Positions 12,391 through 60,380 of a stretch of 64,000 bases of DNA are shown here, piece by piece (the stretch's first letter is position 1; every line of letters begins with the position of its first letter). The notes below the pieces were generated by a model. That model ran no database searches and was not told where the DNA came from. It saw only the letters and a list, made by a program, of their open reading frames with translations. Source of the DNA: Candidatus Spongiisociaceae bacterium (GTDB lineage: Bacteria > Actinomycetota > Acidimicrobiia > Spongiisociales > Spongiisociaceae); the NCBI GenBank assembly GCA_965219685.1, contig CBDCOH010000002.1:3008001-3072000 (forward strand), read 5' to 3'. The position numbers were made by a program, and so were the translations under genes.

Positions 12391-12682
12391 ACCCGCCCGA
12401 GCGTTGTCCCCGACCACGCTCACACAGGACTCTCCCGCCGAAACCACCACAACCCGACGCCCAGTGAAGTCCGTTACGTCGTCGTCTTGCAGCGATCGTT
12501 ATCACTACAGCGGATGGACGGTTCGTTACCCGATCACGAGGGCTTGGGCTGGAATCCTCACTCTGCGCGAAACCACTCGTCCCGGGCGGAGTTTACCCCT
12601 GCCTCTTCGGACTGGTGGTCCACCAAACCGGGTCAACCTCAAACCCGAGTTTGGCGGGTTGGATGAACCGCCCCGGATGCTC

Positions 12683-13915
12683 CTATGTTTTGCAAATCGG
12701 TTTTGTGGTCGGGTCGGTGAGCCATTTCTGGTATCGGGTGGCGAGCTGGTGGTTGTGGTGGAGGCCTCGTTCGAGGAGCGAGAGGAGGGTGGGGTGGACC
12801 TGGAGGTGTTCGGCGGCGTCGGTGAGGGTTAGTCGGGTTTGGTGACGTTGGAGGCGGAGGTCGTTGCCGTCGGGTGTTGCGGACGGTTTGGTTAGTAGGT
12901 GGTAGATCTCGCGTGCGATGTGCCGTTTCAGGCAGCGGATGATCTCGCGGCGAGTTTTGCCTTCGGCTTTGCGTCTGCGGGTGTATTCGATGGTGCGGGG
13001 GTCGGTGCGCATCCGGTTGGTGGCGATTCGCCAGAGAGCGTTGTTGGCTTGGCGGTCGCCGCCTCGGTTGAGCCGATGCCGAACTATCTGTCCCGATGAT
13101 GCTTGGACGGGGCTGAGGGCGCATAGTGCCGCGAAGGACCGTTCCGATTTCATGCGTTGGGGGTTGTCGCCGGCGGCGACTAGGAGTGCTGCAGCGCTGT
13201 GGGGGCCCACTCCGGAGGCGGCTAGGAGCGCCGGGTTGGCCTTGGCGCAGAGACGGCGGATCTCGGTGTCGAGTTCGGCTATTTCTGTGTCGAGGGTCCG
13301 GTATCGGCGGGCCAGGTGCCGCAGCGCCTTTTTCGCGTACGCGGTGGTGGTCTGCGCTTCGCCGGGACGCCAGCGGACACAGATTCTGACCATCGCTTGG
13401 ATACTGGAGCCCCGGAGCCGATGTTTGACCTGCTCAGGGGCGGTTGTGAGGAGGGCGTGGATCTGGTTGGCGGCCTGGATGCGTGCTTTGACCGCTGAAC
13501 GGCGAGCCATCCGAAGCATTCTTATCCCTTCTACGGGTCCGTCCCCGCCTTTGGGTCGCCCGGTGGCATCTCCGCTGAGGGCAGCTCGGGCTGCGGCCTC
13601 GGCGTCGACGGTGTCGGTCTTGCCCCTGAGACGACGCAGCTGGCGGTTGGGACGCATGACCTCCACCACCTCGATGTCGGCTCGGGTCAGATAACGAGCC
13701 AGGCCGGCGCCGTAACTACCGCATCCTTCCACACCGACCTGAACCGGCTGCCCCCAGGAGCGAAGCCACTCCTCCAGCTGCGCGTATCCCGCCGCATCAG
13801 CCCTGAACTGCGCCGACCCCAGTAGGCGACCCGTGTGATCCAGCACCGCTCCAACGTGGACATCCCGATGGGTATCAACCCCTCCATACACATCGACCTG
13901 GTCTTGTTCCGGCAT
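12683..13915 (-). CDS. IS110 recombinase with C-terminal XRE-like HTH
   Basis: GGVDTH, VGVEG, KTDTVDAEAAA (DEDD); ASSG catalytic serine; GGDRQAN; HTH-like tail. Confidence 0.92.
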   Translation of the reverse strand: MPEQDQVDVYGGVDTHRDVHVGAVLDHTGRLLGSAQFRADAAGYAQLEEWLRSWGQPVQVGVEGCGSYGAGLARYLTRADIEVVEVMRPNRQLRRLRGKTDTVDAEAAARAALSGDATGRPKGGDGPVEGIRMLRMARRSAVKARIQAANQIHALLTTAPEQVKHRLRGSSIQAMVRICVRWRPGEAQTTTAYAKKALRHLARRYRTLDTEIAELDTEIRRLCAKANPALLAASGVGPHSAAALLVAAGDNPQRMKSERSFAALCALSPVQASSGQIVRHRLNRGGDRQANNALWRIATNRMRTDPRTIEYTRRRKAEGKTRREIIRCLKRHIAREIYHLLTKPSATPDGNDLRLQRHQTRLTLTDAAEHLQVHPTLLSLLERGLHHNHQLATRYQKWLTDPTTKPICKT

Positions 13916-13929
13916 GCGCTCTGCCTCCC

Positions 13930-14155
13930 CTCTCCTTGTGTCGGAATAGGCTTGTGCGGCAGCGCCGGTCCGAAGCGGGTGGACAAAACACTCAGGGTGT
14001 GGGGAAGAAACGACCAAAGCTCCTATGAGGTCACATCCGCTCCGGGCTGGCTGCCCGTACCCCCCGACCGGTGCCCGGCCGACAGATCCGGGGTAAGGCA
14101 CCACAGCCAGTTTCCCGGTGGGTCAGACCAGGCCCCGGTCGAGGTCCCCTTAAGT
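13930..14155 (-). ncRNA. Putative bridge RNA of IS110-A (boundaries approximate)
   Basis: Guide-like segments CCGGGAAAC and ACCCCGG match the target flanks; CATAGGAGC and TGAGTG match the element's own ends. Confidence 0.75.
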
Positions 14156-14183
14156 ATGAGTGTTTCTCCGGAGACTCGATTAG

Positions 14184-36506: not shown

Positions 36507-39146
36507 ATGGATCCAAGTACCGCCGTCAGTTCGGCCGTAATCTTACCCCTCCGGAGGATGTGGGAACGCGTCGACCGAACTGCACCCGAGTCTGACGTCG
36601 CCTACTTTTATGACCTTCTTAACTTAGGTGAACTTCTGCTAAAATTGGTTGTCGCTGCGTTGGTCACGTCGATCGATAACCGGGATGGCCACCGATATCT
36701 TTTGGAACGGAGCCTTATTCATGCTAATGGTCTAGGTGTTTGGGTGTCTGCTCTTGATGAAGCCCTTAGCGGGCCATCTCGTACGATGATGAGAAGAGAG
36801 GCATATCCGTACCAGCAGGAAATCACTCAGAAATGGTCCCCGACCGAGCAGGCCTGGCAACGAGATGCTATCGAGTATCTAGACCTTACATGTCGGGAGA
36901 TCGATCGAGATCTACCTCAGCCACCACCCAAGGTCTCCCTTGAGTGGTGGTTTACGACCTTCGTCTTGATCCGCAACCGTACGCGTGGGCACGGATCGAC
37001 TCTACCTGGTAAGTCCGCAGTAGCCGCCGTCCCACTTGCCAAATCACTCAGTATCGTTACAAATAATCTCGCTACCTTACGCATACCTTGTGCAGTGATC
37101 CGTCGCAATCTCTCGGGAAAATATAGGGTCGTCCCATTGACAGCACTCGACGATACCCTTAAGGTATTAAAGCAAAAGACTACCCTCAGTTACCCAGACG
37201 GAGTCTACTTTAGTCTTGGCGATCTGCGCTTGACTCCTGTATGCTACACTGACATTGATCTTAGCGATGTCCACATCGCTAACGGCGACTTTCGCCCGTC
37301 TTCCGAGGGAGCCACTTATGAGGTACTCTCCTATATAACCGATAGTCGGGAGCACATTGATGGTTCTGACTACTTGGAACTTATTCGGCAACGTACCGAT
37401 AGCGAAACTCACGGTACATCTGATTTGGAAGTGATCGGTAAAAGTTTCACTAACCTGCCGCCACAGGCCGACGGATACGTTACACGCACTGTGCTAGAGC
37501 AAGAGCTAACCACCGTACTACTTGATGAGCGGCACCCTATGGTGAGTTTGGTAGGCCGTGGGGGAATAGGCAAGACATCTCTTGCTCTTAAGGTACTCCA
37601 CGAACTGTGTCACACGGACGCATTCGATTTTATTCTCTGGTTTAGTGCGCGTGACATAGATCTATTGTCTGAAGGGCCACGAAGCGTTCGACCACAGGTC
37701 TTAACGTTCACAGAGATTGCTAAAGAGTTCATTGCTCTTCTCCGAGACTATGACGTGGGCGATACGACTCTTGACGCGGACGAGTACCTTACGCGCACCC
37801 TTTTGGGTGAACTGACAGGTTACCGCTATTTGGTGGTTGTTGACAACTTCGAGACTGTGCGCAATCCCAAGGAACTCTTTCGTACACTTGATACCCATGT
37901 GCGTCTACCGAACAAGGTTCTAATAACGGGTCGCCACCGGGATTTCAAGGCAGACTATCCCGTCGAGGTGACCGGAATGGTCCGCTCGGAGTATGACGAG
38001 TTGGTCCGCTCCCTCGCCATTAGGCTCAATATATCATCATTGTTGTCCACCGACTACCGGACGAACTTGTATGAGGAGACGGAAGGGCATCCATATCTGA
38101 TCAAGGTGATACTTGGTGAAGTAGCGACGAACCGTAGAGCTACCAATGTTCAGCGCGTGCTTGCTCATCGAGATCGGATGCTTGATGCACTGTTCGAGCG
38201 GTCCTATGCGACCCTGACACCAGCAGCACAGCGTGTCTTCTTGACACTTTGTAATTGGCGCTCTGTAGTATCACAACTCGAACTAGAAGCTGCTCTCATG
38301 CGACCACAGGCTGACTATCTCGACGTCACGACAGCTGTTGACAGTTTGTCACGATACTCAATGGTGGAGGTTCTCAGGAGCCAATCGGACATCGCATTCT
38401 TACGGGTACCCGACGCTGCAAGGATCTTCGGGAAGAAGAAGCTGAAGGTTAGTCATGTGAAGCCGGTCGTCGATGTTGACACTCGAATCCTCCAGACGCT
38501 AGGCGACGTCCGGACCGGTGACATTCGTCGAGATTTCCATCACAGGCTCACTCGGATTTCTCACAATGTAGCTAAGCGAGCTGCACTGGAAGAAGATGTA
38601 AGCACTTATATGGCTATTCTAGAGTATATTGCAACTATCTACCCGCGCGCTTGGCTCGCCATCGCTGGTCTTCGCTTGGAGAATCCCCAGCTTGGTGACG
38701 CGATAGCTTCCCTGGATGCTGTGGAACGATATCTGCAGGAGGCCCCGGATGATGCAGACGCATGGCGAAGGTTGGCAACCTCAGCCCGGGACTTAGACAT
38801 GCACGATCGTGAAATGAATGCTCTGTACCGTTTAGCCAATCTCCCTGGTGCACCTCTTGAGAGCGTATCACGGGCGGCGGCGTGCCTGAGTCGCCACTGG
38901 GTAAGTGGCTTGACGAACGTTGGCCTTGACGAGAAACGGCTTATGGCAAGGCGGCTAGCCCAGTTGATGAGTTCCAAACGATCCGGGGCGAACGGAACCG
39001 ATTTCTCCCGTCTAGCTTGGCTTCATCTCTACCTTAAGGAGGCACACGAAGCTCGTGCGTGTGTTCAAGAGGGTCTGGAGACTGACCCAGGCAATACACA
39101 CCTGCTTAAGCTAGAGTACCGCCTCAGTGAAAAATCTTGGAGTTGA
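36507..39146 (+). CDS. STAND/NB-ARC P-loop ATPase with C-terminal TPR-like repeats
   Basis: GRGGIGKT, LVVVDNFE, LITGR, GHP motifs; lower GC than the flanks. Confidence 0.85.
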   Translation: MDPSTAVSSAVILPLRRMWERVDRTAPESDVAYFYDLLNLGELLLKLVVAALVTSIDNRDGHRYLLERSLIHANGLGVWVSALDEALSGPSRTMMRREAYPYQQEITQKWSPTEQAWQRDAIEYLDLTCREIDRDLPQPPPKVSLEWWFTTFVLIRNRTRGHGSTLPGKSAVAAVPLAKSLSIVTNNLATLRIPCAVIRRNLSGKYRVVPLTALDDTLKVLKQKTTLSYPDGVYFSLGDLRLTPVCYTDIDLSDVHIANGDFRPSSEGATYEVLSYITDSREHIDGSDYLELIRQRTDSETHGTSDLEVIGKSFTNLPPQADGYVTRTVLEQELTTVLLDERHPMVSLVGRGGIGKTSLALKVLHELCHTDAFDFILWFSARDIDLLSEGPRSVRPQVLTFTEIAKEFIALLRDYDVGDTTLDADEYLTRTLLGELTGYRYLVVVDNFETVRNPKELFRTLDTHVRLPNKVLITGRHRDFKADYPVEVTGMVRSEYDELVRSLAIRLNISSLLSTDYRTNLYEETEGHPYLIKVILGEVATNRRATNVQRVLAHRDRMLDALFERSYATLTPAAQRVFLTLCNWRSVVSQLELEAALMRPQADYLDVTTAVDSLSRYSMVEVLRSQSDIAFLRVPDAARIFGKKKLKVSHVKPVVDVDTRILQTLGDVRTGDIRRDFHHRLTRISHNVAKRAALEEDVSTYMAILEYIATIYPRAWLAIAGLRLENPQLGDAIASLDAVERYLQEAPDDADAWRRLATSARDLDMHDREMNALYRLANLPGAPLESVSRAAACLSRHWVSGLTNVGLDEKRLMARRLAQLMSSKRSGANGTDFSRLAWLHLYLKEAHEARACVQEGLETDPGNTHLLKLEYRLSEKSWS

Positions 39147-39295
39147 CGCTGTTCGAGATTTGTGAAGACCCGCCCCTACTGATACGCCGATCCGGGTTAT
39201 CGAATCGGCGACTAGGGAGGTGTGATCGAAAGTAATCCTCTGTAGGTCATCAGACAGCGGCGATTTCAATGAGAGTTTGTAATATCCCAAGGCAT

Positions 39296-39362
39296 CCTCC
39301 GATAGGCGCAAGCCCATCGGTGCTAGCACCGATGCTACTTCATCCCGCAGCGCTTCAGCGTC
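39296..39362 (-). pseudogene. Possible group II intron RT fragment
   Basis: DAEALRDEVASVLAPMGLRLSED resembles RT domain 6/7; no YADD motif. Confidence 0.4.
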
Positions 39363-40056
39363 GTTGCAGGTTGCTGTGGCTATAGAGCAGGCTGGGGATT
39401 TCGAGTGGGCATCGTGGGTCGCTGGGCGGGGACGCTTGCCGCGGGAGGGTTGGCTTCGTGGTTCGGTTGACGACCTGGCTGCGTTCGTGGACAGGGCAGG
39501 CGAGGACGCGGCCGGCCTGTCGGGGCTGGTGGACGACGTGCGTGACACGCTGTCGGCGGCGGCTCTACAGGTGGAGAACTATCCTAACGGCGAGGCCATC
39601 TCCGCGGAGTTCGGGGACGTGCTCTATCAGGCCGGGGGGGTGTCCCTGTCTTGTTGTCAAGCCGCTTTGGGCAGTTTCTCGGGTTGGCGGGGTTGGTAGG
39701 GCGTTTGGGTCTTGAGCATGTGATGGCGATCGAAACCGGGGCGGTTCACACAGGGTGGTGATGCTCCTATGACGCTCCTATATTGTGCAAGTCGGTTGTC
39801 GGGTGTCGATCCATTGTTGGTATCGGGTGGCGAGGTGGTGGTTGTGGTAGAGGCCCCGCTCGAGTCGCGATAGGAGGGTGGGTTGGGTATCGAGGTGGTG
39901 GGCGGCCTGGGTGAGGGTGATCCGGGCTTGGGTTCGACGGTTGCGTAGGTGGGTACCGTCCGGTGTTGGGTGGGGATTGGTCAGCAGTCGGTAGATCTCT
40001 CGGGCGATGTGCCGCTTGAGGCAGCGGATGATCTCTTTTCGTTTCTTTCCCTCGGC

Positions 40057-42002
40057 CCCGAGTTTGGCGGGTGTTTTGTGTTTTGCCTGGTCAGGGGGGA
40101 TTTGGGGTTGGGGTGTTTCCACTACATTGGCGGTGTGGGGGCTGGTGAGGGGGTTTAGGTGATGGTGGCTTTGTCCCAGGTGCGGGTATCTGCTCCGATG
40201 GCGGTGAGGGTTCGGGTTTGTAGGGGGCTGCGGCGGGTGGTGAGATGGATTCGGCGGCCGCTGGTGGTGAGTTGGTGGCGGCGGACACGGTTGAGGTCGC
40301 GCAGGGCTCGGGCGGCGGTGAGGTGCTGGTCTGCGAGGTCGGGGTCACGAACGTCGGCTGCTGCGAGAGCTTGGCTGATGAGGGTCTCGATTAGAGCGGC
40401 GTAGACACAGACCGCGACGTGGCCGCGGACTCGTTGTTCGGTCCAGTGTCTTATGGGGCGGAGCCGTAGGAAGTCTTTGAGGACCCGGAAGCGGGTTTCG
40501 ACTGCTTGCAGTTGGCGGTAGTAGTCCACGACTTGGGCGGTGGGGGCCTGGGTGGGTGTGAGGCTGGTAGCTAGCACGTAGCGGCCAGCGAGGAGCTCTT
40601 CGTATACGTGGGCGTCTTCGTTGTAGTGGTAGAGAAACCGTCCAGGTTCGATCTCGACGTCGAAGAGCCGCCCAGCCCCAACAGTGGCGAGGATACGCTG
40701 CGCGGCTGCCCCGATCTTGGCGGGGTCCTTCAGCCGGCCGGCACGGACGCGGAGCTCCAGCGCCCGCAGTTCGGTTTCGGCGGCGGCGACGATCTGGCCT
40801 GTGCGGGCGGTGTCTCGGCGGGCGCGGGCGTCGGATTCGACCACAACCGCCCGGGTGCCGTCCTCGAGGGTGATATCGGCGGCGCGGCAGCCGCGCTGGG
40901 GGAGGTCGACCCAGACGGTGTCGTCATCAAGAGCGCCAAGGGCTTGTTTGCTGATACGGTCACGACGCAGCTTTGTGGCCAATAGGTGGTCGAACCCGGC
41001 TTCGGCGACCGCCTCCACGTTGGCAGCTGACATCAGGCCCCGGTCGGCGACTACACAGATCCGGCCCACCGCGAACCTCGCCGCTAAGTCGCCCAACACG
41101 GCGGCCAGGGTGGTGGCGTCGCTGGTGTTCCCCGAGAACACATGATGGGCGATCGGGATCCCGTCGGAGGTGCATAGGAGGCCGATCACTATCTGGGGAC
41201 GATCAGCACGATGGTCCCGCGAATACCCGAACGCCCGGGAGGGGAACCGTCCAGAGGACCGTGTCGAACCCTCGAAATATGTGGAAGTCAGGTCGTAGCA
41301 AACCAGCCGCAGGTCCAGGTTCGTCAAGTCGCACAACCGGGCATACAGATGCGTCTCCGTTTGGTCTTTGGAGGCGGCGACCGCGTCCAGAGCCCGGTAA
41401 TACTGATCAAGGGACGGAGCCGACCAGCCGTCGGGCATCACCACATCCACCCCAGCCCACTCGGCCAGCCGCCGCTTCGAGCACGGCGCCACCAGGCGGT
41501 TTGCCACCATCGCGAACACCGCATGCTCCAGAGCCTTCGCGCCCCGCCTCGCGCCGACCTGAGCGAACCACTCCCCGAGGCCCAGCCGCTGCCACACCGA
41601 CCACACCGCCGCTACCGCCCCCACCGCAGGCGCCCCCTCAGCTGCCAACCCGCCGACATCGACACGTTCCCGCACCAGATGACGCTCCAGGGCGGCGACG
41701 ATGCGTTCCAGCTGACCGGACTCGCGCAAAGCGGTCACCTCCCCCAGCCGCAGAAGGGTCCGGTGACCGACCTTCGACCCGTGGCGGAAAGACTCCACCA
41801 AAGACAAATACTCGTACACCTTGTCGCCCCTGCGACGGCGGGTCGTCTTCACGAACATACCCAGAACCATACCACTAACAGCCCACCTATCCAACCATAT
41901 GTCGCCCCTACAAATCCCCACCCAAACCGTGCCCTACACCAAGAAACCCCAGGTCAGAGAACCGACCACCCCCACAAAGCCCCCCAACCCGCCAAACTCG
42001 GG
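40057..42002 (-). mobile_element. IS1634-family element with 5-bp TSD TCGGC
   Basis: IRs CCCGAGTTTGGCGGG; TSD at 40052-40056 and 42003-42007. Confidence 0.92.
40155..41858 (-). CDS. IS1634 transposase
   Basis: YDLTSTYFEG, GYSRDHR, VADRG, VETRFRVLK. Confidence 0.92.
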   Translation of the reverse strand: MFVKTTRRRRGDKVYEYLSLVESFRHGSKVGHRTLLRLGEVTALRESGQLERIVAALERHLVRERVDVGGLAAEGAPAVGAVAAVWSVWQRLGLGEWFAQVGARRGAKALEHAVFAMVANRLVAPCSKRRLAEWAGVDVVMPDGWSAPSLDQYYRALDAVAASKDQTETHLYARLCDLTNLDLRLVCYDLTSTYFEGSTRSSGRFPSRAFGYSRDHRADRPQIVIGLLCTSDGIPIAHHVFSGNTSDATTLAAVLGDLAARFAVGRICVVADRGLMSAANVEAVAEAGFDHLLATKLRRDRISKQALGALDDDTVWVDLPQRGCRAADITLEDGTRAVVVESDARARRDTARTGQIVAAAETELRALELRVRAGRLKDPAKIGAAAQRILATVGAGRLFDVEIEPGRFLYHYNEDAHVYEELLAGRYVLATSLTPTQAPTAQVVDYYRQLQAVETRFRVLKDFLRLRPIRHWTEQRVRGHVAVCVYAALIETLISQALAAADVRDPDLADQHLTAARALRDLNRVRRHQLTTSGRRIHLTTRRSPLQTRTLTAIGADTRTWDKATIT

Positions 42003-43039
42003 TCGGCCTTGCGTCGGGTGACGTAGGCTTTCGTGGCGGGGTCGGTACGCATCCGGTTGGTGGCGATCCGCCATAGCGCGTTGTTGGCTTGGCGGTTGCC
42101 GCCCTGGTTGAGCCGGTGGCGGATGGTCTGTCCGGATGATGCGGGGACGGGGCTGGTGCCGCAGAGGGCAGCGAAGGCTGCCTCGGTGCTCATGCGTTGG
42201 GGGTTGTCGCCCGCGGCTATAAGCAGAGCTGCTGCTGTGTCAGGTCCGACCCCACGAGCTGCCAGAAGCGCCGGGTTTGCCTGGGTGCAGAGACGGCGGA
42301 TCTCCGTGTCGAGGTCGGCGATCTCGGCAGTCAGCGACTGGTATCTGCGGGCCAGGTGCCGCAGGGCACGTTTCGCGTGGGTGGTGGTGGTGTGGTCTGT
42401 GCCGGGTCGGAAAGCGGCGCAGACCCGCACCCGGGCTTTGAGATTCTTGCCTCGGAGCTGGTTCTTTACCGACTCTGGGGCTGTTACCACCAGGGCGTGG
42501 ATCTGGTTAGCGGCCTGCGTGCGGGCTTTGGTGGCGGATCGGCGTACCACCCGCAGCATCCTGATCGACTCCACAGGCCCATCGGCGGTCTTAGGGCGGG
42601 CTGTCGCTTCGCCGTTAAGAGCAGCCCGAGCGGCGGCTTCGGCATCGGTGGAATCGGTCTTGCCCCGGCGGCGGCGTAGCTGGCGGTTGGGACGATTCAC
42701 CTCCACCACCTCGATGCCGACCTCGGTGAGGTGACGGGCCAACCCTGCCCCGTAGCTACCCGTTCCTTCCACCCCGACCCGGATCAGGCAGCCCTGCGAT
42801 CCCATCCAGGCGACCAACCCCCGATACCCGACACCATCCGCCGCGAACGACTCAGACCCCAGCAGCCGGCCTGCGTTATCAACCACCGCCCCAACATGGA
42901 GATCCCGATGCGTGTCCACTCCGCCGACCACAACCCCCTCGGTTCGAACCTTCTCTGCCATGATGCCCTCCCTCCGTGGGCCGCTTAGAATCCAACCCCC
43001 TGGCCCGGGCAGAGCGGCGGACAGAACACTCTGTGAGTA

Positions 43040-43270
43040 TCGGGTGGGTCTCGTTGAGGTTGCCAGGATTGGCGTCAGCGGCGGGGTCGTGACCCGAGAA
43101 CACTCTGACCTCTGTGTCTTTACCGTGATGCGTCCGACACCGCCGCTGCGCCGCCTGGGCGTTCCGTTGCTGGCCTGATCAGAAGCTTGTCCACCGTCCG
43201 GGGTGTGACCCATCACAGTCCTGCCGTCACGGTCTGCGCCTTTAGGAGGCGATAGCCCAGTTCGCACAAG
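43040..43270 (+). ncRNA. Putative bridge RNA of IS110-C (boundaries approximate)
   Basis: AGAACACTC and ACCGTG match the target flanks; AGAAGC and TCACAG match the element's own ends. Confidence 0.75.
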
Positions 43271-43287
43271 AAAGAGAGCGTCTTCTT

Positions 43288-44361
43288 ATGTTGGCCACGA
43301 TGGTAGAGCACGTGATCGGAATCGATCCTGACCGGGACCGGGTCACCGCGTCGGTGGTGGACACTGCCACCACCGGAGAGCAGGCATCTGGGGTGTTTGG
43401 CGCCACCCGGGTGGGTTACGACCGTCTGCTGAAATGGGCAGGCACCCACACCCGGGTAGGTGACCGGGTGTGGTCTGTGGAAGGCACCGGCAGCTATGGA
43501 GCTGGCGTGGCCGGCTACCTTTCTGCCCGTGGTGAGTGGGTGGTGGAGTTCGGGGATCCCACCCCGACCCGCGACGGCGCCAAGACCGACGCCCTCGACG
43601 CACGGCGGGCCGCCCGCCAGGTCCTAGGCCGTGGTCGGCTGCCAGCTCCCCGCGCTCGGGGAAACCGCGAAGCGCTGCGAGTGTTGGAAACCACCCGCCG
43701 AGGAGCCCAAACAGCCAGGGTGGCGGCGATCAACGAGTTGAAAGCCCTGGTAGTAACCGCACCGGTTGGTCTGCGGGACCAACTCGGGGGCCTCACCACC
43801 GCTGGCCTGGTCGCCAAGTGCCACAGATTCCGGCTCCGAGGCGGGACCCTCACCGAGCACACCGCCACCAAGACAGCCATGCGATCTGTCGCCCGACGTA
43901 TCAAGACTCTCACCACCGAGATAGCCGAACTAACCGCGCTCATCGCCGAACTCGTCGAAACAGTCGCTCCCCACCTGGTTGACCAGCCCGGAGTCGGACC
44001 CATCACCGCCGCTCAGATCTATGTCGCCTGGTCACACCGGGGCCGCTTCCGTAACGAAGCAGCCTTCGCCCGCCTCGCCGGCGTAGCACCACTCGAGGCG
44101 TCCTCCGGACAAAACAGCCGCCACCGGCTCAACCGCCACGGCGACCGAACCCTCAACCAAGCCCTCCACACCATCGTCATCACCCGCACCCGCACCTGCC
44201 CCAAGACCCAGGCCTACATCGCTAAACGAACCGCCGAAGGCAAAACCCCCCGAGAAGCCCGACGCTGCCTCAAACGCTACATCGCCCGCCACCTCTACCG
44301 GCTCCTAGAGAACCCACCCAACCACAACACCCATACAGGACCCCCCGCCGGCAGCGGCTAA
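43288..44361 (+). CDS. IS110 recombinase
   Basis: GIDPD, SVEGTGSYG, KTDALDA, ASSG, HGDRTLN. Confidence 0.92.
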   Translation: MLATMVEHVIGIDPDRDRVTASVVDTATTGEQASGVFGATRVGYDRLLKWAGTHTRVGDRVWSVEGTGSYGAGVAGYLSARGEWVVEFGDPTPTRDGAKTDALDARRAARQVLGRGRLPAPRARGNREALRVLETTRRGAQTARVAAINELKALVVTAPVGLRDQLGGLTTAGLVAKCHRFRLRGGTLTEHTATKTAMRSVARRIKTLTTEIAELTALIAELVETVAPHLVDQPGVGPITAAQIYVAWSHRGRFRNEAAFARLAGVAPLEASSGQNSRHRLNRHGDRTLNQALHTIVITRTRTCPKTQAYIAKRTAEGKTPREARRCLKRYIARHLYRLLENPPNHNTHTGPPAGSG

Positions 44362-44410
44362 CCGAACCTCTCCCCACCCCCAACACCGGATTTGCACAAC
44401 ATAGAAGCAT

Positions 44411-44572
44411 CAAGGTGGTGGAGAACGGACAAAGCTCCTATTAGGTCACATCCGCTCCCCGGGCCTAGGGACCTCCCCCAAGGCCGGGAACAGGCCGACA
44501 GGTCATAGAAAAGGCACAACGGCCAGTTTGTCAATGGGTCAGACCCGCCCCGGCCAAGGGGGTCCTACCAGT
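44411..44572 (-). ncRNA. Putative bridge RNA of IS110-B, 5' part (remainder at about 42970-43031)
   Basis: Target guides TTGACAAAC and TTCTATG; donor guide ATAGGAGC. Confidence 0.72.
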
Positions 44573-44583
44573 ATGAGTGGTTG

Positions 44584-45520
44584 TCAAATCGGCGAAGGGG
44601 CCGCCTCGTGAGTTCGGAGCCACCTCTGGTATCGGGTAGCGAGTTGGTGGTTGTGGTCTCGGCCTAGCTCAAGTGCTGAGATGCAGCTGGGGTGGGTGCT
44701 GAGAGCTCGGGCGGCCTGGGTGACGGTGATGCCGCCTTGTTGGCGTCGGGTGCGTAGCCCGGCGCAGTTCGGGGTTGGGGGCGGGTTGGTCAGGAGCCGG
44801 TAGATCTCTCGGGCGATGTGCCGCTTGAGGCAGCGGATGATCTCCCGCTTCTTCTTGCCCTCGGCCTTGCGTCGTGCCACGTAGGCTTTGGTGGCGGCGT
44901 CGTGGCGCATCCGGGTGGTAGCGATTCGCCAGAGGGCGCTGTTGGCTTGGCGGTTGCCTCCGCGGTTGAGACGATGCCGGATGGTCTGGCCTGATGACGC
45001 CTGGACGGGGCTGGTGCCGCACAGCGCAGCGAAGGACTTCTCCGATTTCATACGTCCGGGGTTGTCGCCGGCGGCGACCAGCAGAGCGGCGGCTGTGTCA
45101 GGGCCGATACCTTTGGCGGCTAGGAGAGCAGGGTTGGCCTTCGCGCAGAGGCGACGGATTTGGGCTTCGAGTTGGGTGATTTCTGTGTCGAGGGCCCGGT
45201 ATCGGCGGGCCAGGCGCCGCAGGGCACGCTTCGCATAGGCGGTGGTGGTGTGGTCTGTGCCGGGTCGGAAAGAGGCGCAGACCCGGACCCGGGCTCCGAT
45301 ATCGAGGTCCTTTAGCCGGCGTTTCACACCCTCAGGAGCGGTAACAGCCAGAGAATGGAGCTGGTTGGCAGCCTGGGTGCGGGCCTTGGTAGCGGACCGG
45401 CGGACCACCATCAGCATCCGTATGCACTCGACCGGACCATCACCAGATTTGGGAACGGCGGTAACTTGGCGGCTGGCAGCCGCCCGGGCTGCCGCCTCGG
45501 CGTCTACGCTGTCCGATCTG
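44584..45520 (-). pseudogene. IS110-E recombinase, N-terminally truncated, with HTH tail
   Basis: Begins near SDSVDAEAAARA; highly similar to the 49447-50682 protein. Confidence 0.85.
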
Positions 45521-45530
45521 ATACCTGTAA

Positions 45531-46265
45531 CTATGGCCCGGGTACGCCCGGTCCATAGTGAGCGTCATGGGCCTCGACCGCCGCGGCCTCCGCTGAGAGC
45601 AGCTGCCAGACCCTCCTGAGGACAACGCCGACTAACAGCGGTACGGCCAGGGCGACAAGGGATAACGGCACCAAGCCGCCGGCAATGGCCACGTCGACGC
45701 CCGGAGGCGGGTCCGCCCTGGCTACGACACCGAGCAGGGCGCAGGCCGACATCGCTGCGACCAGCAAAAGCAGGAGGGCGACCGCTTCGTCGATCATCTC
45801 CCGGATGTGGTCGGGGAGGGGTGAGCGGCCTAGAGGCACAAGCACGCCGATTCCTCCGAGGGCGGCCACCGCCCCGGCCACACCGACGGGTACGGCCACG
45901 TTGAGGCGGTCCAAGACCCCGGGGAGGCGCCCTATCTGGACGCTCGCCGAGTTGAGCGCTGCGATGAACCCCTCGTGGACGCCAGCGAGGCCGGACACGG
46001 CGGCGGCGCCCACCATCAGTAGGAGGCCACATGCCCACAAGAGCCCCAGCCACGACCACCAGCCGCCGGGTTGCTCCTGGCGGTACCGCCAGCCGAGTGT
46101 CAGAGCGGTACTCGTTGCGGCCCCGCTCAGCACGAGCCACACCGCCCACCACACTCCTGACGTCTCGGTACCCGCGTACACGAGCACCGCAGCGATCACC
46201 GCAAGCACAGGCGCAAGGTACGGGCGGAACCTCCGGTAGATGCCCCTGACGCGGTCGTAGTCCAT
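45531..46265 (-). CDS. Multi-pass membrane protein of unknown function
   Basis: Several hydrophobic helices. Confidence 0.65.
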   Translation of the reverse strand: MDYDRVRGIYRRFRPYLAPVLAVIAAVLVYAGTETSGVWWAVWLVLSGAATSTALTLGWRYRQEQPGGWWSWLGLLWACGLLLMVGAAAVSGLAGVHEGFIAALNSASVQIGRLPGVLDRLNVAVPVGVAGAVAALGGIGVLVPLGRSPLPDHIREMIDEAVALLLLLVAAMSACALLGVVARADPPPGVDVAIAGGLVPLSLVALAVPLLVGVVLRRVWQLLSAEAAAVEAHDAHYGPGVPGP

Positions 46266-46797
46266 GCGGGGTTTCAAAGGCTTTGACCCGCGGTCAACGT
46301 CGAGGGGGCCTGCTTCGAGCTGCTGACCCTCGATGTGGCCACACCGCCACCCGGTCTGGGAGCACGGAGCGGCTGTGGAGGTGGGTTCGGCGTTGGCGCG
46401 GTGCCCGAGGTCGCGGTTGGCGGTGGCCACGCTGAGCAGCCCGAACTGGTCCAAGACTGGGTGTAACCAGTCGGTCCAGCCAACGCCGCAGTACCCCCTT
46501 GGGTAAGCCCCCATGCTCCCGCATCCCCGGTTAATAGTCCAACACCCGAGACTACGCCCCGGAGGCTCACACACACAGCCCGCGGGCGAGCAGCAGCGGG
46601 CGGCGCCGCTCCCGTCAATCCCCTGGGCATGCCCATTCCGCCGCTATCAGGGCCAGAGAGGCCTCCTCGTCCGAAAGCGTCCCGGTCTAACCGCCTAGCG
46701 CGACCCGAGCGGCGCCTTCCCTGGTCGTTGCCGCCTGAAGGCTCGCTGATCAGTTCGGTCTCGTCGGACCGTAAACGGGTGCCTAAGCATCCCACTG

Positions 46798-47055
46798 TCA
46801 CGTCTCGGTCTCTGGGAAGGCCCGGAGGTCTGCCAGTGTGCGGCCGTCCGGTACCCGCCACGCCATCCACCCGTTCGTCGCTTGTCCGCTGGCCGCGTGG
46901 GCGGCAGCCGATGGAGCGCCGTAAGTCCGGTCTCCGTGGCGGATAAGCGCTGACGGCAATAGCTCGGCGTGGTGAGTTACTCCGTGGTCGGGCCGACACC
47001 AGGTCAGAGGGACAGTGAACTCGATGTCCGGCCTCGATAGGGTGTCCGAAGACAT
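46798..47055 (-). CDS. RAMA-domain-like small protein or fragment
   Basis: YGAPSAAAHAASGQATNGWMAWRVPDGRTLADLR. Confidence 0.6.
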   Translation of the reverse strand: MSSDTLSRPDIEFTVPLTWCRPDHGVTHHAELLPSALIRHGDRTYGAPSAAAHAASGQATNGWMAWRVPDGRTLADLRAFPETET

Positions 47056-47939
47056 GTTGCCATTCCGCCGGATGCTAGTAAACCGTCCCGAAGCGAGGGT
47101 TGGTGGCTCATCGGATTTCCGAAGTGCTGGGTTGGTGCGGTGCCTCGACATCAACATGGTTCTCCGCCGCCACCCCCCACAGGTCACCAACCCGAGGCTC
47201 CATTGAACCGCCGACTTGTATGTCGCTGAAGGTCCCCGTGTCTAGCGGAGAGCGTGCCCACCTAATCGGGTCAACCTCATATAGCATCCGTAACTACAGC
47301 ACAAGACGGTGCCACGCGCATGATCAGAACGCCCCACCGCCGCTGACCGCCTGCCGCGCGATGTTCCATCCCGCGGCCACCAGGACCGGAACTCAAAGGC
47401 CACCATCGGGGAACCGCACACCCGTAGCGTGGTACTAGAAGTGGGACTTCAATCGCCCGGTCGTCAACCAGCACACGGTCTAGCTGGCTGTTCGCCGTTT
47501 ACAGCAGCGGACAGCTCTTCCGATGACGGTCAACACGGTTACTCAGAAAGTGCCGAGTCACGCTCATGCGTTTGGGCCTCGGCTAGATGGCCAAGCGACA
47601 CCAAACGTCTTGGGGTGCAGCGGGGGAAGTCCAATGGGTACGGTCCGGCCGCATTCCTACAGTGAGTCGTCCTGCTGGCCTGTGTGACTGTCTTCTCTTA
47701 GGTTGCCCTGCCTGCCAGCTGACTTGTACCGCCGCCTCGCGTTATCAGCCTTCGGATCCTACTGCCTCTTGACTCCACTCCGCGCCGGCTTCCGTGTTGG
47801 CTGTGGGTCGGACTCGGAGGGCTGGCGGATCGACTGTTGGCCGCGGGGGAAGAGGGTTGCTGGTGACCGGCCCTACAGAACCACCGCGTAGTTTTCAACC
47901 GGCCAAGTCCGCGCAACTTTCGACCGGCGTTGACACCGA

Positions 47940-48270
47940 TGTTGTCGAGCCTTTCCTGCGTGCCAGCTTCCGTGGTTGGATCTACTGCCGCGACAACCCC
48001 GACAGCTGCGTAGACACAGTCCTAGCCGCCGAACCTACACTTGGCCGCAGCCACCAGACATGGCAGATCAACGGCTCATCTGACCGTCACCGGCAGGTAG
48101 CGGCGTGATGGATGGAGCGCTATGGCAGCCGACCACTGGCGTGGCTACCAGCGCAGGGTGTTATCCAGGGAACTCTGCCGGCCGGCTCGCACCGGGCCGA
48201 CTTCGTCCAGAACGCGGTCGACGCGCTGGGGGACGAGCGACTCGATACTGTCGGAAATAACTGGCAGAGG
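47940..48270 (+). pseudogene. ABC substrate-binding protein (NMT1-like) remnant
   Basis: FLRASFRGWIYCRDNP...HQTWQIN; frames are broken. Confidence 0.45.
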
Positions 48271-48492
48271 TCACAGTGCAGTCGAAACCCGGTGGCGAGT
48301 AGAAGCTCGGAGCGCCGCAGGCTCGTCACCGAGATCGAGTGACTGGAGAGAGAGGTGGCGAACATCCGGGCCGAGGTTTTGCAGCGCGCACGGACCGGTG
48401 ACCGGGAGCCGACGATAAGCGCGCCCACTTCGCGTACGAGGCGGCCGACCGAGCTGCACCGACGGCTTCGGGTCTTGTCGGCCCGGGATCGT

Positions 48493-49182
48493 TTATTGCT
48501 GACCTCGCGAAGGGCACTCAGAAGGTGGTGGATCGAGTTGGGCCTTGAGGAGAGAGGTCGATGGAAGCGTATTCGCGACGGTCTGGGCTAGTGAGCGGTA
48601 GGTACACGGTTGTACGAGGTCTCTTAGCGGGTTGAGGCCGATGGACTGTTGGCCTGGTGGAAGCTCCGCCTCGGGAGTCACGTAGAATTCCCACTGTCCG
48701 GCTTCTCGGTGGTCAGCAACGGCGTGTTCTGTTGTGCCGTGCCAGGCGAACACATAGATGTCGGCATGCCGTTGTCGTTCTGTGCTGATCGTGTGGTAGC
48801 CGCCCTCGGAGCACTTCCACGATTTGTTGCGTCCCTCAGAGCACGTCGTCCAATATGTATCGTGTGTAGCGATATCGAACGATGGGTAGGCCGGTCGATT
48901 CGTGGAGTCCGGGCTGGACCAGCTCTGGAGCCTGCTGGACTGCTTGACTTCGAGACGAGCACCGGTTCTGGCGTGTTCGAGGTCCCATGGCGCCCATGGT
49001 TCGGTAAGGCACCAGCCTTGGTCAACACTCCTTAAGATGAGCTCCACCAAGCACTCTACGTAGTCGGCACGTTTGATGTTGCTGATCAGCGGTCGGTTGT
49101 ACATGTGGTCCGCTAAGCGTTTCAGGACCTGAGTCGAGATCGTGCGTTGCTCGGTCAACTCGTGATGACTAGTCCTCGCCAT
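48493..49182 (-). CDS. PD-(D/E)XK-like hypothetical nuclease
   Basis: E.LV...WDL...RLEVKQS...ADIYVFAWH. Confidence 0.65.
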   Translation of the reverse strand: MARTSHHELTEQRTISTQVLKRLADHMYNRPLISNIKRADYVECLVELILRSVDQGWCLTEPWAPWDLEHARTGARLEVKQSSRLQSWSSPDSTNRPAYPSFDIATHDTYWTTCSEGRNKSWKCSEGGYHTISTERQRHADIYVFAWHGTTEHAVADHREAGQWEFYVTPEAELPPGQQSIGLNPLRDLVQPCTYRSLAQTVANTLPSTSLLKAQLDPPPSECPSRGQQ

Positions 49183-49224
49183 GAGGTGATCTCCTCTCCT
49201 GAGGCTTCGCGAAAACACTCATAC

Positions 49225-49430
49225 TTGTAGGGTCCTCCTCGGCTGGGGGCCGGGTCTGACCCACGCGAAAACTGGCGTTTGGTGCCTTTCCCACGATCTG
49301 TCGACCTGGCCCTAGCCGGGAGCCCTGAACCGGGGAGCGGGGTGACCTTATAGGAGCTTCGACTTCTCCACCTTGAGTGTTCTGTCCGCCGCTCTGTCCG
49401 GCTCAGGGGGACTTGGAATTGTAGGCAGTT
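49225..49430 (+). ncRNA. Putative bridge RNA of IS110-D (boundaries approximate)
   Basis: CGCGAAAAC and TCCCACG match the target flanks; ATAGGAGC and TGAGTG match the element's own ends. Confidence 0.8.
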
Positions 49431-49446
49431 GGCGGAAGGTGGGCAC

Positions 49447-50682
49447 ATGGAAGAGCAAGATCGAGCCGATGGCATGGTTGTGGTCGGTGGGGTGGACACG
49501 CATCGGGATACCCATGTTGGGGCGGTGGTCGATAGCGCGGGTCGGCTGTTGGGATCGGCCCAGTTCCGGGCTGATACGGCCGGCTATGGGCAACTTGTCG
49601 CCTGGATGGAGTCGTGGGGTCGGATCAGCCGGGTCGGGGTGGAAGGGACTGGCAGCTACGGTGCCGGCTTGGCCCGTCACCTCACCGGCGCCGGTATCGA
49701 GGTGGTGGAGGTGAACCGTCCCAACCGCCAGCTACGCCGCCGGCGGGGCAAGGACGACCACACCGACGCCGAGGCAGCAGCTCGGGCAGCTCTGAATGGT
49801 GAAGCAACCGCGGTGCCCAAGTCCGGCGACGGGCCGGTCGAGTGGATACGGATGCTGACAGTGACGCGCCGCTCCGCCGTCAAGGCCCGCACCCAGGCCG
49901 CCAACCAACTCCATGCCTTGGTGGTTGGTGCCCCAGAGCCGATAAAAGACCAGGTAAAGGGCATGAAACTCAAAGGCCTGGTTAAGACTTGTGCCCGGTT
50001 CCGACCCAGCGGAGAGTCCTCCCTCAGCTACGCTAAGCAGGCTCTCCGCCGCCTGGCCCGCCGCTACCAGGTCCTCGACACCGAGATCGCAGAACTCGAT
50101 GTCGAGATCCGCCGCCTCTGCGCCAAGGCCAACCCGGCGCTCCTAGCCGCCGACGGCGTCGGCCCCGACACAGTCGCCAAGCTCCTAGTCGCAGCCGGCG
50201 ACAACCCCCAGCGCATGAAATCGGAACGATCCTTCGCTGCGCTGTGCGGTGTCAGCCCTGTGCAGGCGTCATCTGGGCGAAGGGTTCGGCATCGTCTCAG
50301 CCGAGGCGGCAACCGCCAAGCAAACAGCGCCCTGTGGCGGATCGCTACCAACCGGATGCGGACCGACCCCGCCACCCAAGAATACGTCGCCAGACGAGAG
50401 GCTGAGGGCAAAAAGCGAACCGAGATCATCCGCTGCCTCAAGCGGCACATCGCCCGAGAAACCTACCGGCTCCTCACCAACCCGCCACCAACCCCGAACT
50501 GCGCCCGGCTACGCAGCCGACGCCAACAACGCGGAATCACCGTCACCGAGGCCGCCCGAACTCTCGGAACCTACCCCAGCCGCATCTCAGCACTCGAGCT
50601 AGGCCGAGACCACAACCACCAACTCGCTACCCGATACCAGAGGTGGCTCCGAACCCACGAACCGGCCCCATCGCCGATTTGA
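49447..50682 (+). CDS. IS110 recombinase with C-terminal XRE-like HTH
   Basis: GGVDTH, VEG, KDDHTDA, ASSG; tail LRSRRQQRGITVTEAARTLG...ISALELG. Confidence 0.93.
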   Translation: MEEQDRADGMVVVGGVDTHRDTHVGAVVDSAGRLLGSAQFRADTAGYGQLVAWMESWGRISRVGVEGTGSYGAGLARHLTGAGIEVVEVNRPNRQLRRRRGKDDHTDAEAAARAALNGEATAVPKSGDGPVEWIRMLTVTRRSAVKARTQAANQLHALVVGAPEPIKDQVKGMKLKGLVKTCARFRPSGESSLSYAKQALRRLARRYQVLDTEIAELDVEIRRLCAKANPALLAADGVGPDTVAKLLVAAGDNPQRMKSERSFAALCGVSPVQASSGRRVRHRLSRGGNRQANSALWRIATNRMRTDPATQEYVARREAEGKKRTEIIRCLKRHIARETYRLLTNPPPTPNCARLRSRRQQRGITVTEAARTLGTYPSRISALELGRDHNHQLATRYQRWLRTHEPAPSPI

Positions 50683-50889
50683 CAAACATAGGAGCATCGT
50701 GGGGTAGGGCTGCTGTTGTCGGTGCGGGGGCTCATGTTACGAGAACTCCTCGGGCTGCGAAGTTGTTGGTGTTGGTGAAGCCGTGAGCGACTCGGCGTAG
50801 GACCTGGAGCAAGTTGTTGATCCCTTCGATGGGTCCGTTGGTTGCTGGTCTGCTGCGGTGGTAGGCGAGGATTCCTTCTCCCCATGCAC

Positions 50890-51132
50890 CCATGTCCGCA
50901 TGGACAACAGCGCCGGTCGTCGTTACGACGACCGCAAGATCAACGAGGGCAAAACCCACAAAGCAGCAATTAACGATGCCTCAAACGCAAGATCGCATCA
51001 CGCGTCTGGCGCCTCATGCCCGCCGACGAACACCACCGATCCAGTGTCGCCAGAGCGCAACCAAAGGCCGCTTGACAAACACAGAGGCACCCCGGGTATC
51101 ACCCGAGTTTCCGGCAAACCCGGGGCAGTGCA
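50890..51132 (+). pseudogene. IS110 3' remnant followed by an IS3-like IR
   Basis: YDDRKINEGKTHKAA; TTGACAAACACAGAGGCAC end; CCGGCAAACCCGGGGCAGTGCA. Confidence 0.6.

Positions 51133-59121: not shown

Positions 59122-60380
<1,259 letters not shown>

What the first reader, a model, noticed from the sequence alone, without database searches (positions are those of the whole stretch)
44500..44590. IS110-B is guided to the right end and -35 box of sibling IS110s
Seen: guides TTGACAAAC (44526-44534) and TTCTATG (44504-44510) spell the target TTGACAAAC-ATAGAA. The site used is TTGACAACC-ATAGGA in E. D's right end matches the left guide 9/9, and C's right end matches the right guide 7/7. B's own end (TTGCACAATATAGG) matches poorly. 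Inference: B parasitises its kin while avoiding itself. The insertion also places a TTGACA next to B's left end and breaks the victim's donor site.
Basis: partly seen in the sequence, partly recalled or inferred. Interest (0 to 1): 0.75.

Follow-up and report, generated by a model that had tools for sequence, protein, structure and literature searches.

The report
Bridge-RNA transposon aimed at sibling transposons
A dead IS110-type jumping gene carries a guide RNA that spells the conserved right end of its sibling elements, and it sits exactly at that spot in one sibling, which is a tidy natural case of one RNA-guided transposon targeting its own family.

Summary
Element B (minus strand, 44578 to 39771) is an IS110-family element. 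Two later insertions have broken it. Its 5' non-coding end encodes a bridge-RNA target loop. The left guide is TTGACAAAC (44526-44534). The right guide, reverse-complemented, is GTCATAGAA (44502-44510). A guide-to-flank rule calibrated on 22 sibling copies and on real empty sites gives the predicted target TTGACAAAC|ATAGAA. B lies at TTGACAACC|ATAGGAGCATC, 11 bp inside the right end of truncated sibling E, with no base lost or gained. In the 4.4-Mb genome, all 3 sites within one mismatch of the predicted target are intact right ends of D-type siblings (0.026 expected by chance). A second B-like right-end relic elsewhere in the genome also abuts a sibling's 11-bp tail. A relic of the same guide pair survives in another species. 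Self-avoidance holds descriptively: B's own end has 5 mismatches, including the core base. The promoter idea fails, because TTGACA lies only 6 nt from B's -10-like hexamer. The victim's 11-bp donor arm stays intact but is cut off from its body and its -35 box. The machinery is ordinary IS110. The target class, its own family, appears undescribed in the papers I searched. The lineage is rare and appears extinct in the genomes sampled.

The parts
44579..45504 (-). E: truncated sibling IS110. It keeps the C-terminal two thirds of the transposase gene (ORF 45417-44584) and the right end up to the 9-mer TTGACAACC (44587-44579). The stop codon TGA (44586-44584) lies inside the TTGACA box. The left end and N-terminus are lost.
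   Evidence: Pfam Transposase_20 3e-21. 84% inverted match to D over 661 nt, 71% further on up to 45504. tblastn.
44412..44578 (-). B left end, part 1. It starts with ACTCATACT at 44578. It holds the bridge-RNA target loop and the left donor guide ATAGGAGC (44441-44434). X cuts it at 44411/44412.
   Evidence: Homologous to the left ends of A, D and 12 others. The stem-loop is 93.8% paired, against 39-57% when slid.
44526..44534 (-). B left target guide TTGACAAAC, in the same sense as the target's left arm plus core.
   Evidence: It occupies the same alignment columns as the left guides of A (CCGGGAAAC) and D (CGCGAAAAC), which match their own left flanks.
44502..44510 (-). B right target guide TTCTATGAC (reverse complement GTCATAGAA). 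GTC equals the last 3 nt of B's own right end. ATAGAA is the target's right arm.
   Evidence: Same columns as the right guides of A and D. The first 3 nt equal the own right-end tail in 9 of 9 siblings whose right end was found, and in B.
43032..44411 (+). Its own left guide AGAACACTC matches the site in B.
   Evidence: Comparison with intact A gives exact ends. A second copy, 99.4% identical in protein, sits at the homologous site in an A-like element. Pfam.
42003..43031 (-). B left end part 2 (right donor guide region) and the N-terminal three quarters of the B transposase gene.
   Evidence: Pfam DEDD_Tnp_IS110 6.3e-25 and Transposase_20 1e-18. 74% aa identity to D.
40057..42002 (-). Unrelated DDE insertion sequence (588-aa ORF, 40155-41921) that splits B's transposase gene. 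Terminal inverted repeats CCGAGTTTGGCGGG; 5-bp duplication GCCGA.
   Evidence: Pfam DDE_Tnp_1 2e-12. Sequence read.
39771..40056 (-). B transposase C-terminus and B right end, ...GACTTGCACAATATAGGAGCGTC.
   Evidence: HTH_31-like tail as in D and E.
39760..39770 (-). E's severed last 11 nt, ATAGGAGCATC (its left-donor arm), followed by E's own flank ACCACCC...
   Evidence: Intact sibling right ends in relatives read the 9-mer and this tail as one contiguous string.
49217..50698 (+). D: intact sibling (1482 nt). Its right-end site TTGACAAAC|ATAGGA (50679-50693) is a 14-of-15 match to B's predicted target and is unoccupied.
   Evidence: Circle-junction promoter TTGACA-17 nt-CATACT scores 10/12.
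12676..14161 (-). A: intact sibling (1486 nt), used to calibrate ends and guides. Real empty sites exist.
   Evidence: The empty site ...CTCCGGAGAAAC|CGGGGCGGTTCA at genome C2:3159437 has the same flanks as occupied A.

Best explanation
B is an IS110-group insertion sequence with a DEDD recombinase gene preceded by a bridge-RNA gene. The target-binding loop of that RNA is programmed for the subterminal right end of sibling IS110s: the 9-mer that holds the -35 box and the transposase stop codon, plus the first 6 nt of the 11-nt left-donor arm. B entered sibling E by ordinary bridge recombination at that site, in the same orientation as E, 5 nt after E's stop codon and 11 nt before E's tip, with no duplication or loss.

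The same guide pair in a relic from another species, and a second B-type right end abutting a different sibling's tail, indicate that sibling right ends were the habitual target of this lineage (about 0.6 for that sub-claim). B's own right end escapes because it differs at 4 of 9 left-arm positions, including the core base.

Inferred, not shown: the insertion separates the victim's -35 box and body from its donor arm. The victim can then move only as a composite carrying B, and it loses its junction promoter. B can still excise cleanly. B itself was later killed by X and by a DDE element.
For: - Family and layout: Pfam domains; RNA gene upstream of the ORF.
- The target loop is a conserved stem-loop with two variable 9-nt stretches.
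- Ends and guide register are fixed by real empty sites for A and X.
- The rule holds in 15 of 22 copies (left arm) and 7 of 9 (right arm), against 0.25% and 0% in cross pairs.
- B's flanks match at 8/9 and 5/6, and together they rebuild a canonical right end.
- Genome-wide, 3 of 3 sites with 1 mismatch or fewer, and 2 of 3 sites with 2 mismatches, are sibling right ends. Expected by chance: 0.026 and 0.73.
- A second B-like right end (84% identity over 88 nt, also with the unusual GCGTC tail) lies next to ATAGAAGCATC plus a different flank.
- A B-like target-loop relic in G002 is 91% identical over 80 nt. Its left guide is identical and its right guide differs at 1 nt.
- A contig of run X2 bridges the E|B junction with 0 differences. 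E-like contigs in X5 and X6 read an intact right end, TTGACAAAC followed by the tail.
- The -35 box in the right end and the junction promoter are established for IS621 (PMC11208160, passages). They are reproduced here as TTGACA-17 nt-CATACT for D.
Against: - B is a single dead copy.
- No intact B-lineage element was found in 185,579 species genomes or in the metagenome collection.
- No sibling-right-end|left-end junction was found in the 28 other genomes of the family.
- No junction was found in G001, G002, G007 or G021. This is despite the 4 of 4 G002 loci examined carrying exactly E's type of right end.
- Three near-perfect sites in this genome are unoccupied.
- The site used has 2 mismatches to the guides.
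- The two events in this genome and the G002 relic are few and are not fully independent of shared ancestry.
- No activity, RNA or circle was observed.
Confidence: 0.8

Rival explanations
1. A one-off. B's guides drifted to a sequence that happens to occur in sibling right ends. There is no lineage-level habit and no selective logic. Siblings are simply one more conserved multi-copy 'safe harbour', like the IS3- and ISL3-family ends that A and D use.
For: - Every sibling studied here targets some other insertion sequence's end, so hitting an IS end is the clade's norm.
- B-type junctions are absent from the 28 other family genomes and from both collections.
Against: - A second B-type right end abuts a different sibling subfamily's tail with a different flank.
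- The same guide pair is kept in another species.
- Both B-lineage right ends carry T at the core position. Every other sibling right end seen carries C.
Confidence: 0.15
2. Donor half-match event. B, or any sibling, was inserted by its donor-binding loop recognising the victim's donor-like tail ATAGGAGCATC, not by the target loop.
For: - Half-match (left-donor-only or right-donor-only) insertion is reported for IS621 (preprint 10.64898/2026.08.31.748434, abstract and passages).
- Tandem expansions that keep left-donor matches are reported in preprint 10.64898/2026.08.14.744561 (passages).
- B's left donor guide ATAGGAGC matches E's tail.
- A metagenome contig (L027) shows a duplicated 11-bp tail.
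Against: - A left-donor half-match would recombine at the core at the end of the tail, which is E's tip. B sits 11 nt upstream of that.
- Both arms of B's target loop match the actual flanks (8/9 and 5/6).
Confidence: 0.03
3. Not an insertion. The E|B junction arose from homologous recombination between sibling copies or from misassembly of repeats.
For: The region is a dense nest of related repeats. The assembly source is unnamed.
Against: - The two flanks, 4.8 kb apart, rebuild a canonical right end with no base gained or lost.
- The junction falls exactly where B's guides predict.
- A 257-nt contig from run X2 (probably the source sample, so not independent) bridges it with 0 differences.
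Confidence: 0.02

Closest known systems
IS621 / IS110-group bridge-RNA elements (Durrant et al. 2024, PMC11208160; Hiraizumi et al. 2024, PMC11208158)
   Same: - DEDD recombinase with Transposase_20 domain.
- Bridge RNA encoded in the left end.
- The left guide has the sense of the left target arm plus core. The right guide is complementary to core plus right arm.
- -35 box in the right end and -10 box in the left end across the circle junction.
- No inverted repeats.
   Different: - Only the second core base (C) is shared between target (AC or CC) and donor (TC) in the A/B/D clade. IS621 keeps CT in both.
- The guides are 9 + 9 nt, and 3 nt of the right guide match the element's own tail.
- The transposase has an extra HTH_31-like C-terminal tail.
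- The target is the family's own right end rather than a REP sequence.
- No Rfam model matches.
ISEc21 (IS110 family), which targets a conserved stretch of IS3-family transposase genes (Siddiquee et al. 2024, PMC11187229, passage)
   Same: An RNA-guided IS110 member whose natural target lies in a conserved part of another insertion sequence.
   Different: ISEc21's victim belongs to an unrelated family and the site is coding. B's victim is its own family, and the site is the -35 box / donor-arm boundary.
[quoted passage not shown]
   Same: Site- and orientation-specific insertion a few bases inside another mobile element's end.
   Different: IS1111 layout (RNA downstream, subterminal repeats). 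The victim is unrelated.
Expanded and tandem IS110 loci and half-match recombination (preprints 10.64898/2026.08.14.744561 and 10.64898/2026.08.31.748434; abstracts and passages)
   Same: IS110 copies accumulate head to tail in loci that are already occupied.
   Different: Those events are attributed to donor-arm half matches and duplication. Here a full two-arm target-loop match to a sibling's subterminal sequence explains the position.

Membership tests
IS110 family, IS110 group (bridge-RNA elements) | Recombinase with an N-terminal DEDD/RuvC-like domain and a C-terminal Transposase_20 domain | tested here: met
   B ORF: PF01548 6.3e-25 and PF02371 1e-18. D and X have both domains. E keeps only PF02371.
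IS110 family, IS110 group (bridge-RNA elements) | Long non-coding left end upstream of the recombinase gene that folds into a stem-loop whose internal loop holds the target guides | tested here: met
   15-sequence alignment. 22 pairs are 93.8% paired, against 39-57% in slid controls, and 4 pairs have compensatory changes. The two 9-nt guide stretches are the least conserved columns.
IS110 family, IS110 group (bridge-RNA elements) | Guides covary with the flanking target DNA | tested here: met
   Left arm at 8/9 or better in 15 of 22 copies, against 0.25% of cross pairs. Right arm at 5/6 or better in 7 of 9, against 0 of 160. B scores 8/9 and 5/6.
IS110 family, IS110 group (bridge-RNA elements) | Second (donor-binding) loop whose guides match the element's own ends | tested here: inconclusive
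   The left donor guide variants ATAGGAGC, GTAGGAGC and ATAGAAGC go with matching right-end tails. RNAalifold gave no convincing fold for this loop. In B the loop is split by X.
IS110 family, IS110 group (bridge-RNA elements) | Insertion without terminal inverted repeats and without a multi-base target duplication (only a shared core) | tested here: met
   Empty and filled sites for A (1 shared base) and X (core TC). B's flanks rebuild the site exactly.
IS110 family, IS110 group (bridge-RNA elements) | Promoter assembled across the right-end/left-end junction of a circular intermediate | tested here: met
   At sequence level only. D: TTGACA, 14 nt to the tip, then 3 nt of the left end, then CATACT (17-nt spacer, 10/12). 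A scores 8/12 and B 7-8/12. No circle was observed.
IS1111 group | Guide RNA downstream of the transposase gene, and subterminal inverted repeats | tested here: not met
   The RNA gene lies upstream of the ORF in A, B, D and X.
Mobile-element-targeting IS110/IS1111 members (ISEc21, IS4321/IS5075 type) | Repeated independent insertions at one conserved position of another mobile element | tested here: inconclusive
   Two B-type right ends abut sibling tails with different flanks, and there is one left junction. None were found in the 28 other family genomes.

The most novel reading that the evidence does not exclude
Bridge-RNA transposons can turn their programmable guides against their own family. 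In this clade two lineages do so. B-type elements hit the -35 box / donor-arm boundary of sibling right ends. X-type elements hit the part of the sibling's bridge-RNA gene that encodes the right donor guide (3 cases in 2 species). Each is immune through changes at its own equivalent site. For B that change is a T at the otherwise invariant core position. This would be RNA-guided hyperparasitism and competition within one transposon family. It disables the victim's junction promoter or its bridge RNA while the parasite rides on the victim's mobility and transcription.
Probability: 0.3. Interest if true: 0.7.

Novelty: new member of a known kind. Interest (0 to 1): 0.45.

Why it matters
It shows, in natural sequence and at base resolution, that the programmable target loop of an IS110 bridge RNA can be set to a functional site of its own family, and that a few changes including the core base are enough for self-immunity.

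If this is a habit of the lineage, it is a simple model of conflict between RNA-guided mobile elements. It would also be a natural mismatch-tolerance experiment: the site used has 2 of 15 mismatches, and the element's own site has 5.

It also offers a compact set of orthologues (A, D, X and the G002 type) with known natural targets and real empty sites. These have a core that differs between donor and target, which may interest people engineering bridge recombinases.

As it stands, this is one dead copy plus two relics in a sponge-associated lineage. The main value is descriptive.

Tried and rejected
- Rfam 15 scan of 39000-51500 at E up to 1 gave only two chance hits (a lncRNA and a miRNA model) and no bridge-RNA family.
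- Promoter scan of the real E|B junction found 0 sites.
- Scan of all species genomes for the B target loop found only the G002 relic. The same pattern in the metagenome collection gave 0 hits.
- The tail-to-tail pattern in the metagenome collection gave 5 hits. Four are simple tandem repeats in unrelated DNA. One (L027) is a sibling right end with its 11-bp tail duplicated, not a B insertion.
- One search used a pattern I mistyped with one position too many. It did not even find the window's own junction, so it is void. One search is the valid repeat.
- Junction patterns in G001, G002, G007 and G021 found nothing.
- RNAalifold gave no trustworthy fold for the donor loop.
- Read laying: B's left end has no cover in X5 or X7. 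X6 has only short pieces there, including a 79-nt skip with a 20-nt side that probably comes from other siblings. I draw nothing from these gaps. The X|B junction is not formally bridged, because only 29 nt lie on one side.
- I first considered cores CA, AC and TC for the A/B/D clade by eye. The empty site settled the ends.
- Not tried: structure prediction, complex prediction, protein database searches. The protein family is not in doubt.
- Literature. Searches gave listings and abstract openings. I read passages of PMC11208160, PMC11187229, 10.64898/2026.08.14.744561 and 10.64898/2026.08.31.748434. I saw no description of an IS110 whose target loop is aimed at IS110 ends. This is not proof that none exists. 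Supplements were closed. Durrant's supplementary target tables and the preprints' supplementary lists could hold such cases.

Full report
**What is at the locus**

The window lies in a 4.4-Mb, 65% G+C genome. Around 39.7-45.5 kb it holds a nest of IS110-family elements. E (45417-44584) keeps only the Transposase_20 domain, because its N-terminus is lost.

I mapped B on the minus strand as follows.
- Left end part 1: 44578-44412.
- Nested X: 43032-44411, on the plus strand.
- Left end part 2 and most of the transposase gene: 43031-42003.
- An unrelated DDE_Tnp_1 insertion sequence: 42002-40057, with a 5-bp duplication.
- Transposase C-terminus and right end: 40056-39771.

Without the two inserts B is about 1.48 kb, like D (1482 nt) and A (1486 nt).

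**Fixing the ends and the guide register independently of B**

Element A has three full copies with similar flanks (a fourth, A-like, copy is interrupted by X). The genome also holds unoccupied copies of the same site. The string ...CTCCGGAGAAAC|CGGGGCGGTTCA is contiguous at C2:3159437 and is split by A in the window. So these elements run from ACTCATACT... to ...ATAGGAGCATC and share one base (C) with the target.

X is defined just as exactly. Intact A reads ...AACAC-TC-AGGGTG... where an A-like copy carries X, flanked by TC on both sides.

In the left ends of A, D, B and relatives, two 9-nt stretches vary while their surroundings are conserved. RNAalifold on 15 left ends places them on the two sides of an internal loop, between a long outer stem and an invariant 3-bp inner stem. 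The 22 pairs are 93.8% paired, against 39-57% when the partners are slid. Four pairs show compensatory change. This is the layout of the IS621 target-binding loop as described in PMC11208160 (passages).

- The 5' stretch has the sense of the left flank and ends on the core.
- The reverse complement of the 3' stretch reads 3 nt that equal the element's own last 3 nt, then 6 nt of the right flank.

Over 22 distinct copies from this genome and five relatives, the own left guide matches the own left flank at 8/9 or better in 15. Only 0.25% of 394 cross pairs do as well. The right arm matches at 5/6 or better in 7 of the 9 copies whose right end was in the locus. None of 160 cross pairs do. Rows left out of that count: loci that duplicate parts of G000, and copies lacking a recognisable loop.

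**The observation**

B's left guide is TTGACAAAC (44526-44534). Its right guide is TTCTATGAC (44502-44510), whose reverse complement is GTCATAGAA. GTC equals B's own unusual tail ...GCGTC, where the siblings have ...GCATC and ATC.

B's first base (44578) follows TTGACAACC, the end of E's body. That 9-mer holds E's stop codon TGA inside TTGACA. B's last base (39771) is followed by ATAGGAGCATC and then by unrelated flank. The matches are 8/9 and 5/6.

Put side by side, the two flanks are a canonical sibling right end. The same 9-mer and tail are contiguous in 5 of the 7 sibling right ends found in the relatives' loci scanned (L002, L009, L014, L019, L003).

In runs X5 and X6, which come from other studies, contigs about 93-96% identical to E stop matching at 44581. 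Their loose ends read on through TTGACAAAC and the tail. That is an intact right end with a perfect 9/9 left arm. E's single left-arm mismatch may therefore be later decay, although the G002-type siblings carry the ACC form natively.

A 257-nt contig of run X2 bridges the E|B junction with no difference. It is probably from the source sample, so it argues against misassembly but is not independent support.

**Is the target really 'siblings'?**

I scanned the whole genome for the 15-nt predicted target.
- One mismatch or fewer: 3 sites. All are intact right ends of D-type siblings, one of them D in the window. Expected by chance: 0.026.
- Two mismatches: 3 sites. Two are sibling right ends, one of them a distant relic at window 51072. 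Expected by chance: 0.73.

B's own right end, TTGCACAAT|ATAGGA, has 5 mismatches and does not appear even at the 3-mismatch level.

**Is it a habit of the lineage?**

- B is single-copy.
- A second right-end relic at C2:3576887 is 84% identical to B's over 88 nt and has the same GCGTC tail. It is followed by ATAGAAGCATC and then by a flank (TTCATGTCC...) that begins another repeat family.
- That flank, and the tail variant ATAGAAGC, fit the guides of a different sibling subfamily seen in relative G001 (L011: left guide GCCTGATTC, right arm TTCATA, donor guide ATAGAAGC). So this is a separate event in a different kind of victim. Its right arm matches B's guide 6/6.
- Relative G002 carries a roughly 90-nt relic of the same target loop, 91% identical over 80 nt, with the left guide identical and the right guide TTCTATGAT. 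Its left flank is lost. One search gives its record title as a Candidatus Spongiisociaceae MAG.

Against a thriving habit:
- The loop pattern occurs nowhere else in the species-genome collection, and not at all in the metagenome collection.
- The junction pattern occurs in 1 of 29 family genomes, the window's own.
- G002's many siblings of E's right-end type are not occupied, as far as the patterns could show.

**Consequences: what is shown and what is inferred**

For D, the right end places TTGACA 14 nt from the tip, and the left end has CATACT after 3 nt. A circle would therefore carry TTGACA-17 nt-CATACT, scoring 10/12. This matches the junction promoter, with its -35 box in the right end, reported for IS621.

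B's insertion separates E's -35 box and body from E's 11-nt tail. That tail equals the left donor arm, because the donor-guide variants ATAGGAGC, GTAGGAGC and ATAGAAGC go with matching tails in different siblings. The arm itself is intact.

I infer that the victim could then excise only together with B, and without a correctly spaced promoter. B could excise cleanly and restore the site.

Read-through from E's gene, 5 nt upstream, is possible but untested.

Self-avoidance: both B-lineage right ends have T at the core position of the 9-mer. All other sibling right ends I saw have C. These are related copies, not independent trials. Given the poor tolerance of mismatches reported for IS621, 5 mismatches including the core should protect B. 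Whether that was selected cannot be shown from two sequences.

**Rivals**

- A donor half-match event would recombine at E's tip, not 11 nt inside it.
- Homologous recombination or misassembly would not rebuild a perfect site from flanks 4.8 kb apart.
- The serious rival is that this was an occasional outcome in a clade where every member targets some insertion-sequence end. A sits 12 nt inside the terminal repeat of an IS3-type element (rve domains). D sits in the end of an ISL3-type element.

**Comparison with what is known, and novelty**

The machinery is that of IS110 bridge-RNA elements. Targeting of other mobile elements is known for ISEc21, which hits IS3-family transposase genes. It is also known for IS4321/IS5075, which hit Tn21 ends; I saw that only as a reference entry. 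Tandem and expanded IS110 loci are described, but they are attributed to donor half matches.

In the searches and passages listed under Tried and rejected I found no description of a target loop aimed at the family's own right end. Supplements were closed and may hold such cases.

I file B as a new member of a known kind, with a moderately interesting target.

Noticed in passing
Its left guide AGAACACTC and right arm match the stretch of a sibling's left end that encodes the right donor guide (AACAC-TC-ARGGTG). Both copies in this genome sit there, one in B and one in an A-like element. An X-like right end sits at the same place in a more distant sibling in species G007. That makes 3 junctions in 2 of 29 family genomes.
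   Followed up: partly
L005, L012, L016 (G021): Siblings in a related genus carry 2-3 tandem copies of a 51-nt unit running from the left-end start to the end of the left guide. It looks as if the DNA encoding the left guide served as a half-target for the element itself. Compare the non-coding repeat arrays in preprint 10.64898/2026.08.14.744561.
   Followed up: partly
window 12676-14161 and 59088-60410; genome C2:3159437: A-type siblings insert 12 nt inside the terminal repeat (...GGGGAAAC|CGGGGCGGTTCA) of an IS3-type element, whose ORF 59460-60380 has rve domains. Unoccupied copies of the site exist.
   Followed up: partly
window 49203-49216, 50699-50887 and 30452-30670: D-type siblings sit in GGCTTCGCGAAAAC|GTGGGG, apparently the tip of an ISL3-family element. 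The transposase ORF is 29414-30607. A variant of the site that looks unoccupied lies near 30650.
   Followed up: partly
window 50679-50684, 44582-44587: The transposase stop codon TGA of D and E lies inside the -35 hexamer TTGACA of the junction promoter. One 6-mer therefore serves both roles and is part of B's target.
   Followed up: no
window 49429-50682, 44584-45417, 39778-40122: These IS110 transposases carry an extra C-terminal tail of about 90 aa with weak helix-turn-helix hits: HTH_3 just above its Pfam cut-off in D, and HTH_31 and HTH_19 below their cut-offs. X lacks this tail.
   Followed up: no
A/B/D-type junctions, e.g. window 14161/14162 and 12675/12676: The first core base differs between target (A or C) and donor (T). 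The left guide spells the target's version and the right guide spells the donor's. In IS621 the CT core is the same in both.
   Followed up: no
L027 (metagenome contig Ga0307278_10057774, 1639-1660): The right end of a sibling-like IS110 (TTGACAGAC) is followed by two tandem copies of its 11-bp tail ATAGAAGCATC. This may be a trace of a left-donor half-match event.
   Followed up: no
window 1-8438, 9934-12390, 31790-33935, 51755-55075, 56075-59248: Very large ORFs built of repeats with a 111-nt period (motif ...CWG...) or a roughly 1.3-kb period surround the IS nest. I did not examine them.
   Followed up: no
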